Position numbers and translations under genes: made by a program. Source: Bacillota bacterium (GTDB lineage: Bacteria > Bacillota > Clostridia > Christensenellales > UMGS416). Taken from it: a stretch of DNA of 64,000 bases. The notes under the pieces were generated by a model. It was given only the letters and a program-made list of their open reading frames with translations, was not told the DNA's origin and ran no database searches. Below, piece by piece: positions 55,619 through 62,295 of the stretch. The stretch lies in assembly GCA_023421955.1 (NCBI GenBank), contig JAEZSE010000018.1, positions 7,337 through 71,336 on the forward strand, written 5' to 3'. Each line of letters opens with the position of its first letter. The first letter of the stretch is position 1.

Positions 55619-57532
55619 ATGATTCAAATCACATTGGATAAAGTTGCCAAACACTACGGCGTGGACACCGTGATCCAGGACGTGAGCCTTGCCATACAAA
55701 CGGGCCAGCGCCTGGGGCTCGTGGGCGCCAATGGCGCGGGCAAGACCACGATCTTGAAGATGATCACCGGCGAGCTTGCGCCGGATGAAGGCGCGGTGCG
55801 CAAGCCCGACGGCCTGAAAATCGGCTATCTGGCGCAGGAGAGCATGTCCGTGCCCGGCGGAACGCCATGGGAGGAGATGCTGACGGTCTTCGAGGAGGTC
55901 TTCCGCATCGAGGAACGGCTGCGGCAGCTCGAGCACGACATGGGCGAGCTGCACGGCGACCAGGCGGCGTTCGCCCGGCTTTCCGAAGAATATGACAAAC
56001 TGACTTTGAAATTTGAACAGGGCAACGGCTATGGTTACAAAAGCGCCATCCTTGGCGTGCTGAAGGGCCTGGGCTTCACAGAGGAGCAAATATACCGAAG
56101 AGCGAGCACGCTCTCAGGCGGGCAGCAATCGCGCCTTGCCCTGGCCAAGCTGCTGCTGCGCAAGCCCGATATCCTTCTGCTGGACGAACCCACCAACCAT
56201 CTGGATATCCAATCCACCGCCTGGCTGGAGGAATACATCCACGATTTCCCCAACACGGTGATCGTGGTCTCCCATGACCGTTACTTCCTGGACGCCGTGT
56301 GCGATTCCATTGCCGAAGTGGCGCTGACGCGACTCACACTTTATCAGGGCAACTTCACCGAATACATGATCCAGCGTGAGGAACGGATCAATTTGCAGCA
56401 GAAGGCCTATGAGCTGAACCGCCGCGAGATCCAGCGCCACGAGGAAATCATCCGCCGCTACAAGCAATACAACCGGGAAAAGAGCCTGAAGGCCGCCCAC
56501 AGCTGGGAAAAGAAACTCGCCCGGCTTGATCGTGTGGACAAGGTGCGTAACGAAGCCACCGTCAGTTTCAGTTTTGATACGGTTCGCCGCACCGGCGGCG
56601 ACGTGCTGCTGGCGCAGGGGTTATCAAAGAGCTTTGGGCCGGTGAAGCTGTTTGAGGGCATGGACCTGCACATCAAAGCCGGCGACCGCGTGGGCATCGT
56701 GGGCCGCAACGGCATCGGCAAGACCACGCTGCTGCGCATCCTGATGGGCGAGCTCAAGCAGGATGGCGGCCACTACTATTGGGGCACCGGCGTACAGCCG
56801 GGCTATTATGACCAGAAGCAGCAGGGCCTGAGCCCAGAAAAAACGGTAATCGATGAGGTATGGGACACCTACCGCACGCTAGAACCCCAGCAGATCCGTG
56901 ACACACTGGCGGCATTCCTCTTTCGCGGCGACGACATCAACAAGCGCATCGCCGACATCTCCGGCGGCGAGCGGGGGCGCGTGGCGCTGATCAAGCTGCT
57001 GCTGGGGAAATACAACGTGCTGCTGCTGGACGAGCCCACCAACCACCTGGACACCAACAGCTGCCAGGTGCTGGAAGACGCATTGCTCGATTTTGACGGC
57101 ACGCTCTTGTTCGTGTCCCACGACCGCTACTTCATCAACCGTGTGGCGACCCGGGTTCTGGAGATGCGCGATGACGGTGTGACCGACTACCCCGGCAACT
57201 GGGACGAATACCTGCTGCACAAGGCAGCGGAAAAGAACCAGAAGGACGTGGAGGAAGACGACGGCCTAACCCGCACTGAGCGCAAGAAGCAGGACAAGCT
57301 TTCCCGCCAGGCGGAGGCCGATCTACGGGATCGCAAACGGGCTGTGAAAGCACTTGAAGAGCAGGTGACCAAAGTGGAGGCGGAGATCGCCGCGCTGGAA
57401 CAACGGCTCAGCGATCCGGCGGGCTTATCCCCCGCAGACATCGAAAAGCTTTCGCGGGAACACGATGATAAGAAGAAGGCCTGTGACGAGTTGCTTGTGA
57501 AATGGGAAGAAGCGCTGGAGGCACTGGGCTGA
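55619..57532 (+). CDS. ABC-F family ATPase (tandem ABC domains, C-terminal coiled coil)
   Basis: Two Walker A / signature / Walker B sets and a charged coiled-coil tail. Confidence 0.85.
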   Translation: MIQITLDKVAKHYGVDTVIQDVSLAIQTGQRLGLVGANGAGKTTILKMITGELAPDEGAVRKPDGLKIGYLAQESMSVPGGTPWEEMLTVFEEVFRIEERLRQLEHDMGELHGDQAAFARLSEEYDKLTLKFEQGNGYGYKSAILGVLKGLGFTEEQIYRRASTLSGGQQSRLALAKLLLRKPDILLLDEPTNHLDIQSTAWLEEYIHDFPNTVIVVSHDRYFLDAVCDSIAEVALTRLTLYQGNFTEYMIQREERINLQQKAYELNRREIQRHEEIIRRYKQYNREKSLKAAHSWEKKLARLDRVDKVRNEATVSFSFDTVRRTGGDVLLAQGLSKSFGPVKLFEGMDLHIKAGDRVGIVGRNGIGKTTLLRILMGELKQDGGHYYWGTGVQPGYYDQKQQGLSPEKTVIDEVWDTYRTLEPQQIRDTLAAFLFRGDDINKRIADISGGERGRVALIKLLLGKYNVLLLDEPTNHLDTNSCQVLEDALLDFDGTLLFVSHDRYFINRVATRVLEMRDDGVTDYPGNWDEYLLHKAAEKNQKDVEEDDGLTRTERKKQDKLSRQAEADLRDRKRAVKALEEQVTKVEAEIAALEQRLSDPAGLSPADIEKLSREHDDKKKACDELLVKWEEALEALG

Positions 57533-57605
57533 CAGAGAAATTCTTCCAAAATAATAGTTGCATCATGCAATTGTTTTGTGTTACAATCAATTCAGGAGGG
57601 GTTCC

Positions 57606-58073
57606 ATGGAGCACGAAGGACAGCACAAACTGTTGCGGGAGCTGGCCGGCGCACTGATCGGCAAGCTGCGCCTGCTGGAAGACAACACCCTCTCCTGCTG
57701 CGGCGTCACGCTGGCGCAATGCCAGACGCTGGTGGAGATTGGCCGGGCAGGCACCCTGAGCCTGGGCGAGCTGAGCGCCCGGATGAACCTGGACAACAGC
57801 ACGATGAGCCGGACGGTGAATAACCTGGTGACAGCCGGCCTGTGTGAACGCACCGAAGACCGGCAGGACCGGCGCTATCTGGCAATCAGGCTGACGGAAA
57901 GCGGTGCGGAGCTTTATCAATCGGTGGATTCGGGTATGGACGGGTATTACGAAGCAATCTTCGACGCCCTGCCCGAGGAAAAGCGCGCTCAGGTGCTGGA
58001 GAGCATGGCGCTGCTGATGAAAGCAGTCGTTACCTCCGAAATCTGTGGCGCAGGGGGGTGCAGTAATGAATGA
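57606..58073 (+). CDS. MarR-family regulator with a vicinal Cys pair
   Basis: CAGGAGGGG RBS. Winged helix ...LSLGELSARMNLDNSTMSRTVNNLV..., Cys cluster SCCGVTLAQC, C-terminal CGAGGC. Confidence 0.7.
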   Translation: MEHEGQHKLLRELAGALIGKLRLLEDNTLSCCGVTLAQCQTLVEIGRAGTLSLGELSARMNLDNSTMSRTVNNLVTAGLCERTEDRQDRRYLAIRLTESGAELYQSVDSGMDGYYEAIFDALPEEKRAQVLESMALLMKAVVTSEICGAGGCSNE

Positions 58074-58440
58074 TATTCTGCTGTATGCCGGATCAGCAAT
58101 TGTCATGCTTTGGGGCATTGCCCACATCATCCCAACCGCTGCCGTAGTGCGTACCTTTGGCAATATTTCCGCTGAGAGCAAACAGCTGATCACGATGGAA
58201 TGGATCGCCGAGGGCATCGCATTACTCTTCATCGGGTTGGTCGTGTTTCTGGCAACAGTTGCAGGCAGCCCGGGCAACCCCGTATCACAGCTGATTTGCT
58301 GGGCGGCAGCGGCAGCATCATTAGCCATCGCGATACTCGCGCTGTTTACCGGGGCTAGAACGAGCATGATCCCGGTCAAGATCTGCCCGGCAGTCATGAC
58401 CGTGGCGGCGCTATTGATGGTGCTGGGAAATTTGCTATAG
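58066..58440 (+). CDS. small 4-TM membrane protein, overlaps the marR stop by 8 nt
   Basis: Hydrophobic 124-aa product; GGGGG RBS located inside the marR coding sequence. Confidence 0.45.
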   Translation: MNDILLYAGSAIVMLWGIAHIIPTAAVVRTFGNISAESKQLITMEWIAEGIALLFIGLVVFLATVAGSPGNPVSQLICWAAAAASLAIAILALFTGARTSMIPVKICPAVMTVAALLMVLGNLL

Positions 58441-58568
58441 CCCGATCACAATCTCGGTGCCATTATGAACAGGCACATTTTTTGAGCTCATATAATTGCA
58501 TATTGCAACAATTGTTATATGCAGTTAAATAAAAGAGAAACGGCTTAAGCCGTGAAAGGAGAAACAAC

Positions 58569-59363
58569 ATGACCACCATTCGGGATGAAGTTAAGAAACA
58601 CTACGGGGAAATTGCCGCCAAGGCCAACCGGGCCGGCTGCTGCTCAGCAGGATCCGGGGCGAGCGCAGCGGGGAAGCTGTATGGCGGAGAAGACCTGAGC
58701 GCACTGCCAAGCCAGGCGGTGCAAAACTCCTTGGGCTGCGCAAACCCGCTGGTGTTCGCCGGGCTCAAGCCAGGCGAAACGGTGCTGGACCTGGGCAGCG
58801 GCGGAGGAATCGACGTGCTGATCTCCTCCAGGTATGTAGGCGAAACAGGCAAGGTGTATGGCCTGGACATGACCGATGAAATGCTAAAGCTGGCCAATGC
58901 CAACAAAGCCAGGATGGGCGCAAACAACGTGGAATTCCTGAAGGGCTATATTGAGGACATCCCGCTGCCGGACGGCACTGTGGATGTGGTGATGTCCAAC
59001 TGCGTGATCAACCTATCGGAAGACAAGCCGAAGGCGCTGGCGGAAGCCTACCGGGTGCTGAAACCGGGCGGCCGGTTCGCGGTGGCCGACATCGTCGCGG
59101 TAAAACCCTGCCCCGACAGCATCCGCCAGCAGGTCGCCCTGTGGTTCAGCTGCATTTCCGGAGCGCTGGAGGTCAAAGAGTATTCCCGGCTGCTGCAGGA
59201 AGCCGGTTTCCATGATGTATCTGTGGAGCCCGTGCACCTGTATACCAGCGACGTGATTGAGCGGGAGGTTATCGGCAACTCTAGGAAATACGCAAAATAC
59301 CGAAGCCTGGTAAGCGAAGCTGACGGCGTATTCGCAGGCGCATTGATCAAGGCTGTCAAGTAA
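58569..59363 (+). CDS. arsM: arsenite S-adenosylmethionine methyltransferase
   Basis: VKKHYGEIA, SAM motif VLDLGSGGGID, conserved Cys positions (CC near the N-terminus, LGCANP, SNCVINL, FSCISGA). Confidence 0.8.
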   Translation: MTTIRDEVKKHYGEIAAKANRAGCCSAGSGASAAGKLYGGEDLSALPSQAVQNSLGCANPLVFAGLKPGETVLDLGSGGGIDVLISSRYVGETGKVYGLDMTDEMLKLANANKARMGANNVEFLKGYIEDIPLPDGTVDVVMSNCVINLSEDKPKALAEAYRVLKPGGRFAVADIVAVKPCPDSIRQQVALWFSCISGALEVKEYSRLLQEAGFHDVSVEPVHLYTSDVIEREVIGNSRKYAKYRSLVSEADGVFAGALIKAVK

Positions 59364-59501
59364 CCCCCTGCCGCACCCGGCTCCATCAAAACGCTGGAGC
59401 CGGGCCGGCTGCTGCTCAAGAATCATTTCATAAAGCATCATAACGTGGTACTATATGCAGATGGACCAGCCACCGCAGGCGGACTTAAGGAGGCACGCAG
59501 C

Positions 59502-60035
59502 TTGACCGCTATCGAAGCCATCTACGCCCGCCGGTCGATCCGCAAATACGAGGATCGCCCCGTGGAAAAGGAAAAACTCATGGAGCTCTGCAGCCTGGGT
59601 GCGGCAGCCCCCTCGGCCACCAACAAACGCCCCTGGGCCTTCGTGATCGTGGATGAACCGGCGCAAATGAAAAAACTTGCCTCCGCCACAATGTTTGGAA
59701 AGTTCGGAGCGCCGGCAGCCATCGTGGTGTGCGGAGACCTCCGCCGTTTGGTGCCGTTCGGAAAAGGCTTCTGGATCCAGGATTGCTCCGCCGCGATGGA
59801 AAACATCCTGCTGGGCGCAACAGCAATGGGCCTTGGTTCCGTCTGGCTGGGTGTCACGCCGATCAAGCCCGCTGTGTGGGCGATGCGTCAGGCACTGAAG
59901 CTGCCCCGCCATATTGAGCCGTTGGGCGTGGCCTATCTGGGGTATCCGGCAGAAACCAGAGAACCCAGGACGCAGCTGGAGGACGGGATGGTTCAGTGGC
60001 AGCAGTGGGACCAAAACGATCAGGAGGACGAATGA
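59502..60035 (+). CDS. nitroreductase-family flavoprotein
   Basis: TTG start 8 nt after AAGGAGG. IEAIYARRSIRKY motif. Confidence 0.65.
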   Translation: MTAIEAIYARRSIRKYEDRPVEKEKLMELCSLGAAAPSATNKRPWAFVIVDEPAQMKKLASATMFGKFGAPAAIVVCGDLRRLVPFGKGFWIQDCSAAMENILLGATAMGLGSVWLGVTPIKPAVWAMRQALKLPRHIEPLGVAYLGYPAETREPRTQLEDGMVQWQQWDQNDQEDE

Positions 60036-61156
60036 ACATCTCAAAAACCGACGCATTGCTCTGGTTCGACCATTTCTCACAACTGGGTGAGGACGAAGAA
60101 CTGAGCGCAATGCAAGAGGAAATTGCATACGCAGCTTTCGCACAGATCGAGGCGGTGGTTGATCGCAGAAACGACGAGCTGCTATCTCAAATCAAAGGGC
60201 TGAAAACCCTGGAGAACAGAACCTATTATGTCGGCATCGAGGAGAAATTCCCGCAGGGATGCCGCTCCTGCCTGTTGGGCACAGGCCTCAGCGCCATCCG
60301 CAAGACAAACAAGTGCAACCTGAACTGCAAGTTCTGCTATGATTTCGGCCAGCACGGACATATCCCACCAGTGGGCGAAGGCATGTGGGAAATCGGCGGA
60401 ACCAAATTCTACGAAAGGGATCTCGAGTTGCTCCTTTCGATCCACAGCAAGCCCACAGGGATTTCCTATGTCTATCTGGAACCCTTCCTGGAGATAGAAA
60501 AATATTACTCAATCGTGCGAAAATTCCGTGAGGCGCAGGTTCATCAGCACCTCTACACCAACGGAACATTGGCCACGGAGGAAACCTTACGGGCGTTGGG
60601 CGAGGCGGGCCTTGATGAGATCCGGTTCAACCTGGGGGCGTCCAATTGCGCGGACCGGGTGATTGAAAACATTAGGATTGCCAAGAGGCACATCCCCAGC
60701 GTCGGTATTGAAACACCGATGACGCCGGAGTTTTATGAAGCGTTTTTGCGGAAGAAGCAAGCAATTCTGCAAACGGGGCTGGATTTCATCAATTGCGCCG
60801 AGCTGCATTTGAACGAGAACAACATCGGCAACTATTTCGGGGAAAACCTATATCTGTGCAGGCAGGGCTACATATCGCCCATATGGAGCAGAGAGCTCAC
60901 TTTGAAGCTGATGAAACTAGCCGATGAGGAGCAATGGGAGCTGGCTGTCCATGATTGCGCCAACCGCACCAAATTTGCCAGAGGGCTAAACCTCAGCGCC
61001 AAAGAGGGCAAATGGTTTGGGGCCAGCAATTATGCCTGTGAGTTTTCCAGGATCCCATACGAAGCATTCCTTCCAATCCTGAATGACGACAGTTTCAGGT
61101 TCTTAAGCGAGGAAGCATTGCCGGCTGGCTACGCGCCACCATCGCTCAATCTCTGA
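60032..61156 (+). CDS. radical SAM enzyme of unknown function, translationally coupled to the nitroreductase gene
   Basis: ATGA overlap with the upstream stop codon. CNLNCKFCYD CX3CX2C motif ~100 aa from the N-terminus. RBS CAGGAGG. Confidence 0.65.
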   Translation: MNISKTDALLWFDHFSQLGEDEELSAMQEEIAYAAFAQIEAVVDRRNDELLSQIKGLKTLENRTYYVGIEEKFPQGCRSCLLGTGLSAIRKTNKCNLNCKFCYDFGQHGHIPPVGEGMWEIGGTKFYERDLELLLSIHSKPTGISYVYLEPFLEIEKYYSIVRKFREAQVHQHLYTNGTLATEETLRALGEAGLDEIRFNLGASNCADRVIENIRIAKRHIPSVGIETPMTPEFYEAFLRKKQAILQTGLDFINCAELHLNENNIGNYFGENLYLCRQGYISPIWSRELTLKLMKLADEEQWELAVHDCANRTKFARGLNLSAKEGKWFGASNYACEFSRIPYEAFLPILNDDSFRFLSEEALPAGYAPPSLNL

Positions 61157-61157
61157 G

Positions 61158-61745
61158 CTACATCACAAACGCCCCGACCACCCCTGCCAGGATTGTGATC
61201 AGCACTGGGTCCACCTTGAATTTCTCCGCCGAGAAATATGCTGCGACGGCGATCAGGATCGCAGGCAAGCTCACGATGCTGCCCAACTGCGGCAAGATGG
61301 CACTGTGACTGGCAATCAAGGATTTCACAGCCTCACTGCTGAAGATCGATGTGTCTGCAAAGAACACAAAGGCCGTCGCGATCATACCCACTGTGGCAGG
61401 CCGTATCCCGCCCAACACCGCTTGAATGGGGCCGTTGGTCTTGAATTTCTGAATGAAGTGAGCCACGGCAATGATGATGACAAATGCCGGCAGCGACACT
61501 GCGATGGTTGCCACCACTGCGCCCCAAATGCCTTGTGACTGAAAGCCCACATAAGTGGCGGCGTTTACGGCGATGGGGCCTGGCGTCATCTGCGACAACC
61601 CCACCAGATTGGAAAACTCCGTGGGATCCATCAAACCGAAATTCTGGATTTCCTGATAAATCAGCGGCAGCATCGCGTAGCCACCGCCAAAACTGAACAG
61701 CCCAAGCTTGAAAAACACATAAAACAATTGCAGCAGTTTAAGCAT
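61158..61745 (-). CDS. chrA: chromate transporter ChrA, short-chain half 2
   Basis: FSFGGGYAMLPL CHR motif and 6 TM helices. Confidence 0.75.
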   Translation of the reverse strand: MLKLLQLFYVFFKLGLFSFGGGYAMLPLIYQEIQNFGLMDPTEFSNLVGLSQMTPGPIAVNAATYVGFQSQGIWGAVVATIAVSLPAFVIIIAVAHFIQKFKTNGPIQAVLGGIRPATVGMIATAFVFFADTSIFSSEAVKSLIASHSAILPQLGSIVSLPAILIAVAAYFSAEKFKVDPVLITILAGVVGAFVM

Positions 61746-62295
61746 GCTTCCTGACCCTCCCATAAGCATACACGACAAGGCCGATCAGGGCGCCCATCAG
61801 GATTGCATACATGGCGCTGACGCTGAAAAACACAATGATGATGAAAGACACTGCAGCGATAGCAATGTCCAACTTGCTCTTCACAGCCTTTTTGCCCAAG
61901 TTGATGGCGGCACGCAGGATCAACGCAGCCGAGGCAGCCCGGATGCCTGCGAACACCTTATCCACCACAGGGTTGCCGGCTAACGAAGAAAGCAAGGTCA
62001 ACACCAACAGGATTGACAGAAACGCAGGCAGCACCGTGCCCAGCGACGCGCTCACCGCACCGGCGAATCCGGACACGCGATAGCCCACATAAATGGATGC
62101 GTTGATCGCAATCACACCTGGCATCGATTGCGAGATCGCGAAGACATCGATGATCTCCTCCTCCGAAATCCACTTGCGACGATCCACAATTTCCTTATGG
62201 ATCACCGGCAGCATTGCCATGCCGCCGCCAAATGTAAAGGTGCCGATCTTCAGGAACACCAGGAACATCTCGGCCAACCGCCGCAGTTTTTGCAT
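61738..62295 (-). CDS. chrA: chromate transporter ChrA, short-chain half 1
   Basis: FTFGGGMAMLPV CHR motif. 8-nt overlap with the partner gene. Confidence 0.75.
   Translation of the reverse strand: MQKLRRLAEMFLVFLKIGTFTFGGGMAMLPVIHKEIVDRRKWISEEEIIDVFAISQSMPGVIAINASIYVGYRVSGFAGAVSASLGTVLPAFLSILLVLTLLSSLAGNPVVDKVFAGIRAASAALILRAAINLGKKAVKSKLDIAIAAVSFIIIVFFSVSAMYAILMGALIGLVVYAYGRVRKHA

What the first reader, a model, noticed from the sequence alone, without database searches (positions are those of the whole stretch)
57606..61156. arsM / nitroreductase / radical-SAM cassette behind a Cys-bearing MarR: candidate organo-metalloid biosynthesis or detoxification module
ArsM (SAM motif plus conserved Cys set) is followed by a nitroreductase-family flavoprotein whose stop overlaps (ATGA) the start of a radical-SAM enzyme (CNLNCKFC). 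Translational coupling implies a functional pair. Upstream sit a MarR regulator with an SCCGVTLAQC Cys cluster and an overlapping small membrane protein. Split chrA genes converge downstream. Radical-SAM partners of ArsM are known for arsenosugar (ArsS) and arsinothricin (ArsL) pathways in other phyla. This rSAM has a different layout (~100-aa N-terminal domain before the cluster), so it may define a distinct anaerobic organoarsenical, or related metalloid, transformation. The MarR may be a thiol-based sensor replacing ArsR here.
Basis: inference. Interest (0 to 1): 0.7.

Follow-up and report, generated by a model that had tools for sequence, protein, structure and literature searches.

The report
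Arsenic-methylation cassette beside unrelated radical-SAM gene
The genes are real, but the conserved unit is an arsenite-sensing MarR repressor with the arsenic methyltransferase ArsM, while the nitroreductase is a resident backbone gene and the radical-SAM gene is a widespread orphan that landed next to it, so no new organoarsenic pathway is indicated.

Summary

The proposed arsM/NTR/rSAM triad fails its own refutation test.
- In 80 genomes carrying this rSAM (70-88% identical), NTR is adjacent only in the two closest relatives. Those two lack MarR and ArsM, as does a third close relative (L172).
- The other 78 genomes show no conserved neighbourhood.
- NTR orthologues show NTR is the constant backbone gene. 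The MarR-membrane-ArsM cassette and the rSAM are each present or absent independently, and only this window has both.
- The ATGA coupling comes from a 7-residue NTR tail found only where the rSAM follows.

The real module is MarR plus ArsM.
- The MarR belongs to a clade with an invariant CC pair, a third nearby Cys, and usually a C-terminal Cys.
- ArsM lies directly downstream in 26 of 62 informative loci and hgcAB in 9.
- A palindrome, TTGCA-N3-TGCAA, sits before both marR and arsM.
- This matches the published As(III)/Sb(III)-responsive MarR_ars subfamily.

The rSAM's function remains unknown. Overall this is a new member of a known kind, of modest interest.

The parts
57558..57570 (.). Operator-like palindrome O1 (TTGCATCATGCAA), 36 nt upstream of the marR start codon
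   Evidence: It is one of only two matches to TTGCANNNTGCAA in the 64 kb window, even when 1 mismatch is allowed. The same motif (<=1 mismatch) lies within 200 nt upstream of MarR homologues in 36 of 75 loci, against 3.1% of background windows. It is also present upstream of marR in L163, L166, L169 and L170.
57606..58073 (+). MarR-family repressor of the Cys-rich, MarR_ars-like clade. Cys31, Cys32, Cys39, Cys148 and Cys153 are candidate metalloid ligands.
   Evidence: Pfam MarR_2/MarR match. Alignment A1 shows the CC pair invariant, the third Cys in at least 90% of sequences, and a C-terminal CC in most.
58066..58440 (+). 124-aa membrane protein with about 4 TM helices and unknown function, translationally overlapped with marR. 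It carries a conserved (V/I)K(I/L)CP motif.
   Evidence: No Pfam or NCBIfam family matches. Orthologues at 47-66% identity follow MarR in L166, L169, L170 and L094.
58496..58508 (.). Operator-like palindrome O2 (TTGCATATTGCAA), 61 nt upstream of the arsM start codon
   Evidence: This is the second and last match in the window. An equivalent second site lies in the memb-arsM spacer of L166.
58569..59363 (+). ArsM, a short (264 aa) As(III) S-adenosylmethionine methyltransferase
   Evidence: NF008823 scores 300.6 bits against a cutoff of 263. It falls far below the cutoffs of the arsinothricin-type ArsM model (142.5 vs 500) and the arsenosugar-type model (115.7 vs 400). It aligns to solved ArsM structures with the conserved Cys motifs.
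59370..59409 (+). GC-rich hairpin just after arsM with no U tract. It may act as an mRNA stabiliser or a weak terminator.
   Evidence: Folding gives dG -28.2 kcal/mol with z = -3.05. The terminator scan did not call it on the + strand.
59502..60035 (+). Nitroreductase-family flavoprotein (177 aa). This is the conserved backbone gene of the locus, and its last 7 codons are an extension created by the rSAM junction.
   Evidence: PF00881 match. Orthologues occur with or without ArsM and with or without the rSAM. The C-terminal extension appears only in the rSAM-linked copies.
60032..61156 (+). Orphan radical-SAM enzyme of unknown function (374 aa). It has an N-terminal helical domain, a CxxC at residues 77-80, the cluster motif C95-x3-C99-x2-C102, and four further invariant Cys.
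   Evidence: PF04055 match. More than 3000 homologues are 70-78% identical across Clostridia and Negativicutes. There is no conserved neighbourhood. Structure searches give only generic rSAM cores.
61158..61745 (-). Short-chain CHR (chromate transporter family) protein, second gene of the pair
   Evidence: PF02417 E=5.7e-47.
61738..62268 (-). Short-chain CHR (chromate transporter family) protein, first gene of the pair
   Evidence: PF02417 E=1.4e-51. The pair is conserved next to NTR in L163, L167, L169, L170 and L172.

Best explanation
The region is a composite of independent pieces, not one pathway.

**1. marR-memb-arsM (57558-59363): an arsenite-inducible arsenic-methylation cassette.** Inferred mechanism, by analogy with the characterised AdMarR_ars:
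- The MarR dimer binds the TTGCA-N3-TGCAA palindromes in front of marR and arsM and represses both.
- As(III), and possibly Sb(III), MAs(III) or Hg(II), binds the Cys31/Cys32 pair plus a third thiol (Cys39 or a C-terminal Cys).
- This releases the repressor, and ArsM then methylates As(III) using SAM.

The co-translated 4-TM protein is a clade-specific accessory of unknown role.

**2. The nitroreductase is a resident backbone gene of this bacterial lineage.** The cassette sits upstream of it. It may be co-transcribed by read-through, but it does not depend on ArsM.

**3. The rSAM is a highly conserved, usually free-standing gene of unknown function.** It was inserted directly behind NTR in the common ancestor of a small subclade. 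NTR now reads through the rSAM's ribosome-binding site, which produces the ATGA overlap.

**4. The chrA pair is an ordinary two-gene short-chain chromate-transporter unit.**

**Shown here:** gene identities, phyletic independence of the parts, operator enrichment, and the origin of the junction.
**Inferred:** ligand binding, repression, and transcript structure.
For: **Gene identities:**

**Independence of the parts**
- Of 80 rSAM loci, only L001 and L002 have NTR, and they lack MarR and ArsM.
- Synteny with L001 and L002 breaks exactly at 57528-59501, where they carry a lipoprotein-like ORF instead.
- L172 (NTR 91%, rSAM 89%) has the same arrangement as L001.
- L167 has NTR, the chrA pair and S8, with neither ArsM nor the rSAM.
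- L166, L163, L169 and L170 have MarR-(memb)-ArsM-NTR without the rSAM.
- rSAM neighbours elsewhere are heterogeneous.

**MarR-ArsM as the real unit**
- In 62 loci with at least 900 nt downstream of MarR, ArsM is directly downstream in 26, HgcA in 9 and an ArsN1-like GNAT in 5.
- 46 of the 62 have an ars or hgc gene in the flank.
- The rSAM appears in 0 of 80 loci and NTR in 1 of 80.

**Operator:**

**Cys conservation:**

**Published precedent for the mechanism:**

**Junction origin**
- The 7-residue NTR tail occurs only in rSAM-linked copies.
- It is encoded by the AGGAGG-containing sequence before the rSAM ATG.
- AGGAGGA is the enriched motif upstream of rSAM genes in other genomes.

**ArsM pathway type:** this ArsM falls well below the cutoffs of the pathway-specific ArsM models that pair with rSAM enzymes.
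Against: - Within the close MarR clade, every locus with ArsM also has NTR next downstream (5 of 5). In L169 and L170 the arsM stop overlaps the NTR start. A functional ArsM-NTR link in this lineage therefore cannot be excluded.
- The hairpin after arsM has no U tract. In this window arsM, NTR and the rSAM could be one As-inducible transcript.
- The rSAM's substrate is unknown, so a role in metalloid chemistry cannot be formally ruled out.
- The promoter proposed for NTR-rSAM in the 138-nt spacer was seen by eye only and was not called by the scan.
Confidence: 0.75

Rival explanations
1. ArsM, the nitroreductase and the rSAM act together under MarR control to make or detoxify a novel organo-metalloid compound, analogous to ArsM/ArsS or ArsM/ArsL.
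For: The genes are adjacent on the same strand. There is an ATGA overlap between NTR and the rSAM. No canonical terminator separates arsM from NTR. The rSAM function is unknown.
Against: - Only this window combines all three genes. The rSAM and the ArsM cassette assort independently across relatives.
- 78 of 80 rSAM loci have neither partner.
- 0 of 80 MarR-clade loci have the rSAM.
- There is no similarity to ArsS or ArsL models.
- The ArsM is of the generic type, not the arsinothricin or arsenosugar type.
- No operator precedes NTR-rSAM.
- The overlap is a by-product of insertion.
Confidence: 0.05
2. ArsM and the nitroreductase form a functional pair in this lineage. The flavoprotein would process an arsenical, for example by redox cycling of methylarsenicals or reduction of nitro-aromatic arsenicals. 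The rSAM would be unrelated.
For: ArsM is followed by an NTR orthologue in the window, L163, L166, L169 and L170. There is a 4-nt stop/start overlap in L169 and L170. Flavoproteins are known members of ars clusters (ArsH, ArsV).
Against: - NTR orthologues at 62-93% identity occur without ArsM in L001, L002, L172, L167, L173, L174 and another contig.
- 29 more distant MarR-ArsM loci lack NTR.
- The shared ABC-F...NTR...chrA...S8 backbone suggests positional inheritance rather than function.
Confidence: 0.15
3. The nitroreductase and the rSAM are a functional pair, with the flavoprotein serving for example as electron donor or co-substrate processor for the rSAM enzyme. ArsM would be unrelated.
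For: The 4-nt overlap is kept in four genomes: the window, L001, L002 and L172.
Against: The pairing is confined to one shallow subclade. The other 78 rSAM loci have no nitroreductase neighbour. NTR orthologues are mostly without the rSAM. The overlap arose through a C-terminal NTR extension across the rSAM's ribosome-binding site.
Confidence: 0.05

Closest known systems
MarR_ars subfamily (AdMarR_ars of Achromobacter deleyi As-55; Yu et al., bioRxiv 10.1101/2021.08.12.456183)
   Same: - MarR fold.
- A vicinal Cys pair in the N-terminal third plus a C-terminal Cys, with nearly the same spacing (Cys36/37 to 157 versus Cys31/32 to 148/153).
- Location in ars gene clusters.
- Sites at both its own promoter and the target-gene promoter. 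The paper shows EMSA binding to the marR and arsV promoters; here there are two identical-type palindromes.
   Different: - The targets here are arsM, and in sister loci hgcAB or an ArsN1-like GNAT. The paper discusses arsV, arsN and arsP and does not mention arsM, hgc or an operator sequence.
- The hosts are anaerobic Bacillota.
- There is an extra near-invariant Cys39 and usually a C-terminal CC doublet.
ArsR-regulated arsM or hgcAB clusters (for example arsR1-linked arsM-acr3 in Paraclostridium bifermentans EML, PMC11653729; ArsR-like regulator of hgcAB in P. mercurii ND132 as summarised in PMC10349881)
   Same: A thiol-based metalloid-responsive repressor is placed directly upstream of a metal(loid) methylation gene. 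ars and hgc genes are co-located.
   Different: The regulator here belongs to the MarR family, not ArsR/SmtB. This window additionally has a separate arsR-acr3-arsC-hgcA-hgcB cluster 33 kb away.
ArsM/ArsS (arsenosugar) and ArsM/ArsL (arsinothricin) radical-SAM pathways
   Same: An arsM gene lies within two genes of an rSAM gene.
   Different: - The rSAM has no detectable similarity to those families beyond the CX3CX2C core.
- The ArsM scores far below the cutoffs of the pathway-specific ArsM models.
- The adjacency is not conserved.
Short-chain CHR pairs (B. subtilis ChrA/ChrB, formerly YwrB/YwrA; from my own knowledge of the CHR superfamily)
   Same: Two adjacent, overlapping genes of about 180-195 aa each, both with a single Chromate_transp domain.
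   Different: Scores are below the NCBIfam equivalog cutoffs for the Bacillus ChrA and ChrB models. The substrate was not tested.

Membership tests
ArsM (arsenite S-adenosylmethionine methyltransferase) | Whole-protein match to the curated ArsM model above its cutoff | tested here: met
   NF008823 scores 300.6 bits against a cutoff of 263.
ArsM (arsenite S-adenosylmethionine methyltransferase) | SAM-binding motif and the conserved cysteines that bind As(III) (N-terminal Cys, GCxNP Cys, SNCVINL Cys, CxxGAL Cys) | tested here: met
   The alignment to CrArsM 5evj shows VLDLGSGGG, GCANP/GCGNP, SNCVINLS and C-I-S-GAL/C-L-A-GAL in register. Cys24/25 align at the N-terminal Cys position.
ArsM (arsenite S-adenosylmethionine methyltransferase) | Methylation of As(III) in vitro or in vivo | not testable with these tools
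   This requires an enzyme assay or As speciation.
MarR_ars subfamily | MarR winged-helix fold | tested here: met
   PF12802 E=8.6e-14 and PF01047 E=5.1e-13.
MarR_ars subfamily | Three conserved cysteines: a vicinal pair near residue 36/37 and a C-terminal Cys near residue 157 | tested here: met
   Cys31/Cys32 are invariant in 26 homologues. A C-terminal Cys or CC is present in most, and the window protein has Cys148 and Cys153.
MarR_ars subfamily | Encoded within or next to arsenic-resistance or transformation genes | tested here: met
   46 of 62 informative loci have ars or hgc genes in the flank, and ArsM is directly downstream in 26.
MarR_ars subfamily | Sequence clustering with AdMarR_ars in a phylogeny | not tested
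MarR_ars subfamily | DNA binding relieved by As(III)/Sb(III) | not testable with these tools
   This needs EMSA or a reporter assay. Only the candidate operators were found.
ArsS / ArsL type radical-SAM partners of ArsM | Sequence membership in the ArsS or ArsL families | tested here: not met
   No such model is listed for the rSAM even at E<=10. The best hits are generic rSAM cores at 25 bits or less. That NCBIfam holds ArsS and ArsL models rests on my own knowledge.
ArsS / ArsL type radical-SAM partners of ArsM | Conserved genomic linkage of the rSAM gene with arsM | tested here: not met
   Only 1 of 80 rSAM loci (L033) has a distant ArsM-like gene (42% identity), on the opposite strand. 0 of 80 MarR/ArsM-clade loci have the rSAM.
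Glycyl-radical enzyme activases (PFL-AE family) | Match to PFL-AE/GRE-activase models and a glycyl-radical enzyme neighbour | tested here: not met
Radical SAM superfamily | CX3CX2C cluster motif and partial TIM-barrel core | tested here: met
Nitroreductase family (PF00881) | Pfam match above the gathering score | tested here: met
   87.8 bits against 23.5. The closest solved structures are uncharacterised NAD(P)H nitroreductases.

The most novel reading that the evidence does not exclude
In this one lineage, the orphan rSAM was inserted directly behind the nitroreductase. No U-tract terminator follows arsM. NTR-rSAM may therefore be under read-through from the As(III)-inducible arsM promoter, so ArsM, the flavoprotein and the rSAM would be co-expressed and could act together on methylarsenicals, as a recently assembled organoarsenical pathway.

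A second, better-supported reading goes beyond the finding. The same Cys-rich MarR clade may be a shared sensor controlling both arsenic methylation (arsM) and mercury methylation (hgcAB) in anaerobic Bacillota. I rate that at about 0.5 probability and about 0.5 interest.
Probability: 0.05. Interest if true: 0.7.

Novelty: new member of a known kind. Interest (0 to 1): 0.3.

Why it matters
The result removes a tempting but unsupported pathway hypothesis. It shows how two independent gene gains around a resident gene can mimic an operon, even down to a start/stop overlap.

On the positive side, it extends the recently described MarR_ars regulators to anaerobic Bacillota and to arsM. In sister loci it extends them to hgcAB and ArsN1-like genes. 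It also supplies a candidate operator, TTGCA-N3-T(G/A)CAA. Regulation of anaerobic arsenic methylation and of hgcAB is poorly understood, so this gives a concrete regulator-operator pair to test.

It also flags a very highly conserved, uncharacterised radical-SAM family present in cultured Clostridium, Sporomusa and Anaeromusa strains.

Tried and rejected
- **rSAM identity by sequence.** NCBIfam at E<=10 gave only generic rSAM cores. PDB sequence search gave only chance IMPDH hits. PADLOC gave a weak pVip core match of 24.7 bits.
- **rSAM function from context.** Neighbour clustering in 80 loci found no conserved partner. Pfam on 60 close same-strand neighbours gave a heterogeneous mix. No Rfam element was found. 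No enriched upstream motif was found except the Shine-Dalgarno sequence.
- **Distant relatives.** Relatives at 37-43% identity are sometimes fused to YcaO, TPR or NTP_transf_5 domains. These are too distant to transfer a function.
- **Literature.** No paper links arsM, radical SAM and nitroreductase. COG2108 has no informative literature.
- **Composition.** The rSAM's GC (0.519) is slightly below that of NTR and ArsM (about 0.60). This is only weakly suggestive of foreign origin.
- **Promoter and terminator scan.** Nothing beyond chance was found in 57400-61400.


Full report
**1. What is there**

- An ABC-F ATPase ends at 57532.
- MarR follows at 57606-58073 (155 aa, containing SCCGVTLAQC and a C-terminal CGAGGC).
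- A 124-aa membrane protein lies at 58066-58440. It overlaps the MarR stop by 8 nt and has about 4 TM helices.
- ArsM lies at 58569-59363. NF008823 scores 300.6 bits against a cutoff of 263.
- A nitroreductase-family protein (NTR) follows. Its likely start is TTG at 59502, preceded by AAGGAGG.
- A 374-aa radical-SAM protein (rSAM) lies at 60032-61156. Its ATG overlaps the NTR stop as ATGA.
- Two overlapping Chromate_transp genes lie on the minus strand (61158-61745 and 61738-62268), followed by an S8 peptidase.

ArsM aligns to solved ArsM structures with the SAM motif and the conserved cysteine motifs in register. The window matches an ENA wetland-type metagenome scaffold. The closest genomes are uncultured Bacillota MAGs.

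**2. Test of the triad from the rSAM side**

The rSAM family is very large and unusually conserved.
- More than 3000 homologues were found. Most are 374 aa and 75-78% identical across Clostridium, Caloramator, Lutispora, Anaeromusa, Sporomusa and others.
- In a library clustered at 50% identity, these copies collapse to essentially one cluster. The next relatives are only 37-43% identical.

I fetched 80 genome loci and searched them with all the window proteins.
- NTR is adjacent only in L001 and L002, the two closest relatives. Neither has MarR, the membrane protein or ArsM.
- Only one locus (L033) has a distant ArsM-like gene, on the opposite strand.
- Clustering of all neighbouring ORFs found no conserved partner.
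- The rSAM is usually separated from its neighbours by 50-500 nt.
- The close same-strand neighbours are a mix of MFS transporters, methyltransferases, GNATs, HD proteins and others.

**3. Where synteny breaks**

Nucleotide alignment with L001 and L002 is continuous through ABC-F up to 57527. It resumes at 59502 in L001 and 59486 in L002, which is the NTR start. In between, the relatives carry a lipoprotein-like ORF of about 366 aa with no Pfam match. L172 (NTR 91%, rSAM 89%) has the same arrangement. MarR-memb-ArsM is therefore a replaceable cassette, and NTR-rSAM exists without it.

**4. Test from the NTR side**

NTR orthologues show that NTR is the constant gene.

| Locus | NTR identity | Arrangement |
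|---|---|---|
| L167 | 78% | RraB-like, NTR, chrA pair, S8; no ArsM, no rSAM |
| L166 | 74% | ABC-F, MarR, memb, ArsM, NTR, peptidase S66; no rSAM |
| L169/L170 | 70% | arsR, arsC, acr3, hgcA, hgcB, MarR, memb, ArsM, NTR, chrA pair; arsM stop overlaps NTR start; no rSAM |
| L163 | 69% | MarR, ArsM, NTR, chrA pair; no rSAM |
| L173/L174 | 62% | NTR stands in unrelated contexts |
| one further contig | 73% | NTR stands in an unrelated context |

The ArsM cassette and the rSAM are each present or absent independently around a resident NTR gene. Only the window has both.

**5. Origin of the ATGA coupling**

NTR copies followed by the rSAM (window, L172, L001, L002) carry a 7-residue C-terminal extension, such as QNDQEDE or QNNREDK. 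NTR copies without the rSAM lack it and end at ...WQxW(E/K/D) or directly after the final W.

In the window this tail is encoded by ...CAGGAGGACGAATGA. That sequence is the rSAM's Shine-Dalgarno region and start codon. AGGAGGA is the motif enriched upstream of rSAM genes elsewhere. The overlap is best explained as NTR reading through into an inserted gene's ribosome-binding site, not as an old functional pairing.

**6. The real conserved module**

MarR homologues (about 400, at 45-66% identity) share an invariant CC pair, a third Cys seven residues later in at least 90% of sequences, and usually a C-terminal CC.

I examined 80 metagenome loci. Of these, 62 have at least 900 nt downstream of MarR. 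In those 62, the directly downstream gene is:
- a full-length ArsM orthologue in 26;
- HgcA in 9;
- an ArsN1-like GNAT in 5.

Of the 62 loci, 46 have ars or hgc genes in the flank (arsR, acr3, arsC, arsA, hgcB). HgcA and HgcB score above NCBIfam cutoffs. The GNAT scores 135.9 bits on ArsN1a, below its cutoff of 170. None of the 80 loci has the rSAM.

**7. Operator**

TTGCA-N3-TGCAA occurs exactly twice in the 64 kb window, even when one mismatch is allowed. One copy is 36 nt before marR and the other 61 nt before arsM.

The motif (<=1 mismatch, mostly TTGCA-N3-T(G/A)CAA) lies within 200 nt upstream of MarR homologues in 36 of 75 loci, against 3.1% of background windows. These include loci where hgcA is the downstream gene (L085, L087, L104, L149).

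It is present before marR in L163, L166, L169 and L170. L166 also has a copy in its memb-arsM spacer. It is absent near NTR in the ArsM-less loci. No copy precedes NTR-rSAM in the window.

**8. Comparison with the literature**

A 2021 preprint defines MarR_ars.
- AdMarR_ars of Achromobacter represses marR and arsV.
- It binds both promoters and is released by As(III) or Sb(III).
- It depends on Cys36, Cys37 and Cys157.

The Cys pattern, the spacing, the ars context and the two-promoter arrangement all fit the MarR here. The paper does not mention arsM, hgc or an operator sequence. MarR-family genes upstream of hgcA have been noted only in passing elsewhere. I found no paper linking arsM, radical SAM and nitroreductase.

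**9. The rSAM itself**

- It has an N-terminal helical domain, CxxC at residues 77-80, the cluster motif at 95-102, and invariant Cys206, 255, 309 and 336.
- No curated family matches, and no ArsS, ArsL or PFL-AE model is listed.
- There is no solved relative by sequence.
- The AF2 model (pTM 0.80) matches only generic rSAM cores.
- Distant relatives are sometimes fused to YcaO, TPR or a nucleotidyltransferase domain.

Its function remains unknown. Nothing ties it to arsenic.

**10. Verdict**

The MarR-as-metalloid-sensor idea holds. The triad pathway does not.
- The region is an As(III)-responsive MarR_ars-type arsM cassette placed next to a backbone nitroreductase and an independently acquired orphan rSAM.
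- Two residual uncertainties remain. ArsM and NTR may be functionally linked in this lineage (about 0.15). NTR-rSAM may be co-transcribed with arsM in this particular genome.
- Novelty: a new member of a known kind. Interest: 0.3.

Noticed in passing
window 21439-25086 (minus strand): The window carries a second metalloid cluster: arsR (24721-25086), acr3 (23650-24708), arsC (23214-23624), hgcA (21736-22980) and hgcB (21439-21723). HgcA, HgcB and Acr3 score above NCBIfam cutoffs. This organism is therefore a candidate methylator of both mercury and arsenic. In relative L169 the same genes are contiguous with MarR-memb-ArsM-NTR.
   Followed up: partly
L085, L087, L104, L130, L131, L134, L135, L149, L152 (metagenome loci): The same Cys-rich MarR clade lies directly upstream of hgcA-hgcB in at least 9 loci. 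Several of these have an exact TTGCA-N3-TGCAA site before marR. This suggests a MarR-type regulator of mercury-methylation genes in Bacillota.
   Followed up: partly
L088, L115, L116, L122, L126, L127, L133, L137, L140 and others: An ArsN1-like GNAT acetyltransferase (ArsN1a model 135.9 bits, below the cutoff of 170) commonly follows ArsM in MarR-ArsM loci, in 17 loci in total. In some loci it follows MarR directly.
   Followed up: partly
window 60032-61156; L001-L080: The rSAM family is 70-78% identical across Clostridia and Negativicutes. It also appears in Calditrichales and Solirubrobacterales assemblies, always in different contexts. This suggests very strong constraint, horizontal spread, or both. 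Relatives at 37-43% identity are fused to YcaO, TPR or NTP_transf_5 domains.
   Followed up: partly
window 60012-60035; L172, L001, L002: NTR has a 7-residue C-terminal extension only in genomes where the rSAM follows. The extension is encoded by the rSAM's ribosome-binding region, and this is the origin of the ATGA overlap.
   Followed up: yes
L001 6243-7403, L002 6302-7402, L172 805-1866: A lipoprotein-like ORF of about 353-386 aa with no Pfam match occupies the exact place of MarR-memb-ArsM in the closest relatives.
   Followed up: no
window 58066-58440; L166 1104-1481; L169 3770-4144; L094 1074-1475: The small 4-TM protein coupled to MarR has no family assignment. It keeps a (V/I)K(I/L)CP motif with a single conserved Cys, and it occurs only in the closest MarR clade plus L094.
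   Followed up: partly
window 55619-57532: The upstream ABC-F protein scores above the cutoff of the NCBIfam 'ribosomal protection-like ABC-F' model (518.7 bits against 380). It is a possible antibiotic-resistance-type ABC-F and is part of the conserved backbone.
   Followed up: no
L033 5868-6536 (minus strand): This is the only one of 80 rSAM loci with an ArsM-like methyltransferase nearby (42% identity). The gene lies about 1.5 kb upstream of the rSAM on the opposite strand and is probably a coincidence.
   Followed up: no
window 58540-58553: A small perfect hairpin (ACGGCTTAAGCCGT) lies between operator O2 and the arsM ribosome-binding site. The scan flagged it as terminator-like on the minus strand only.
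   Followed up: no
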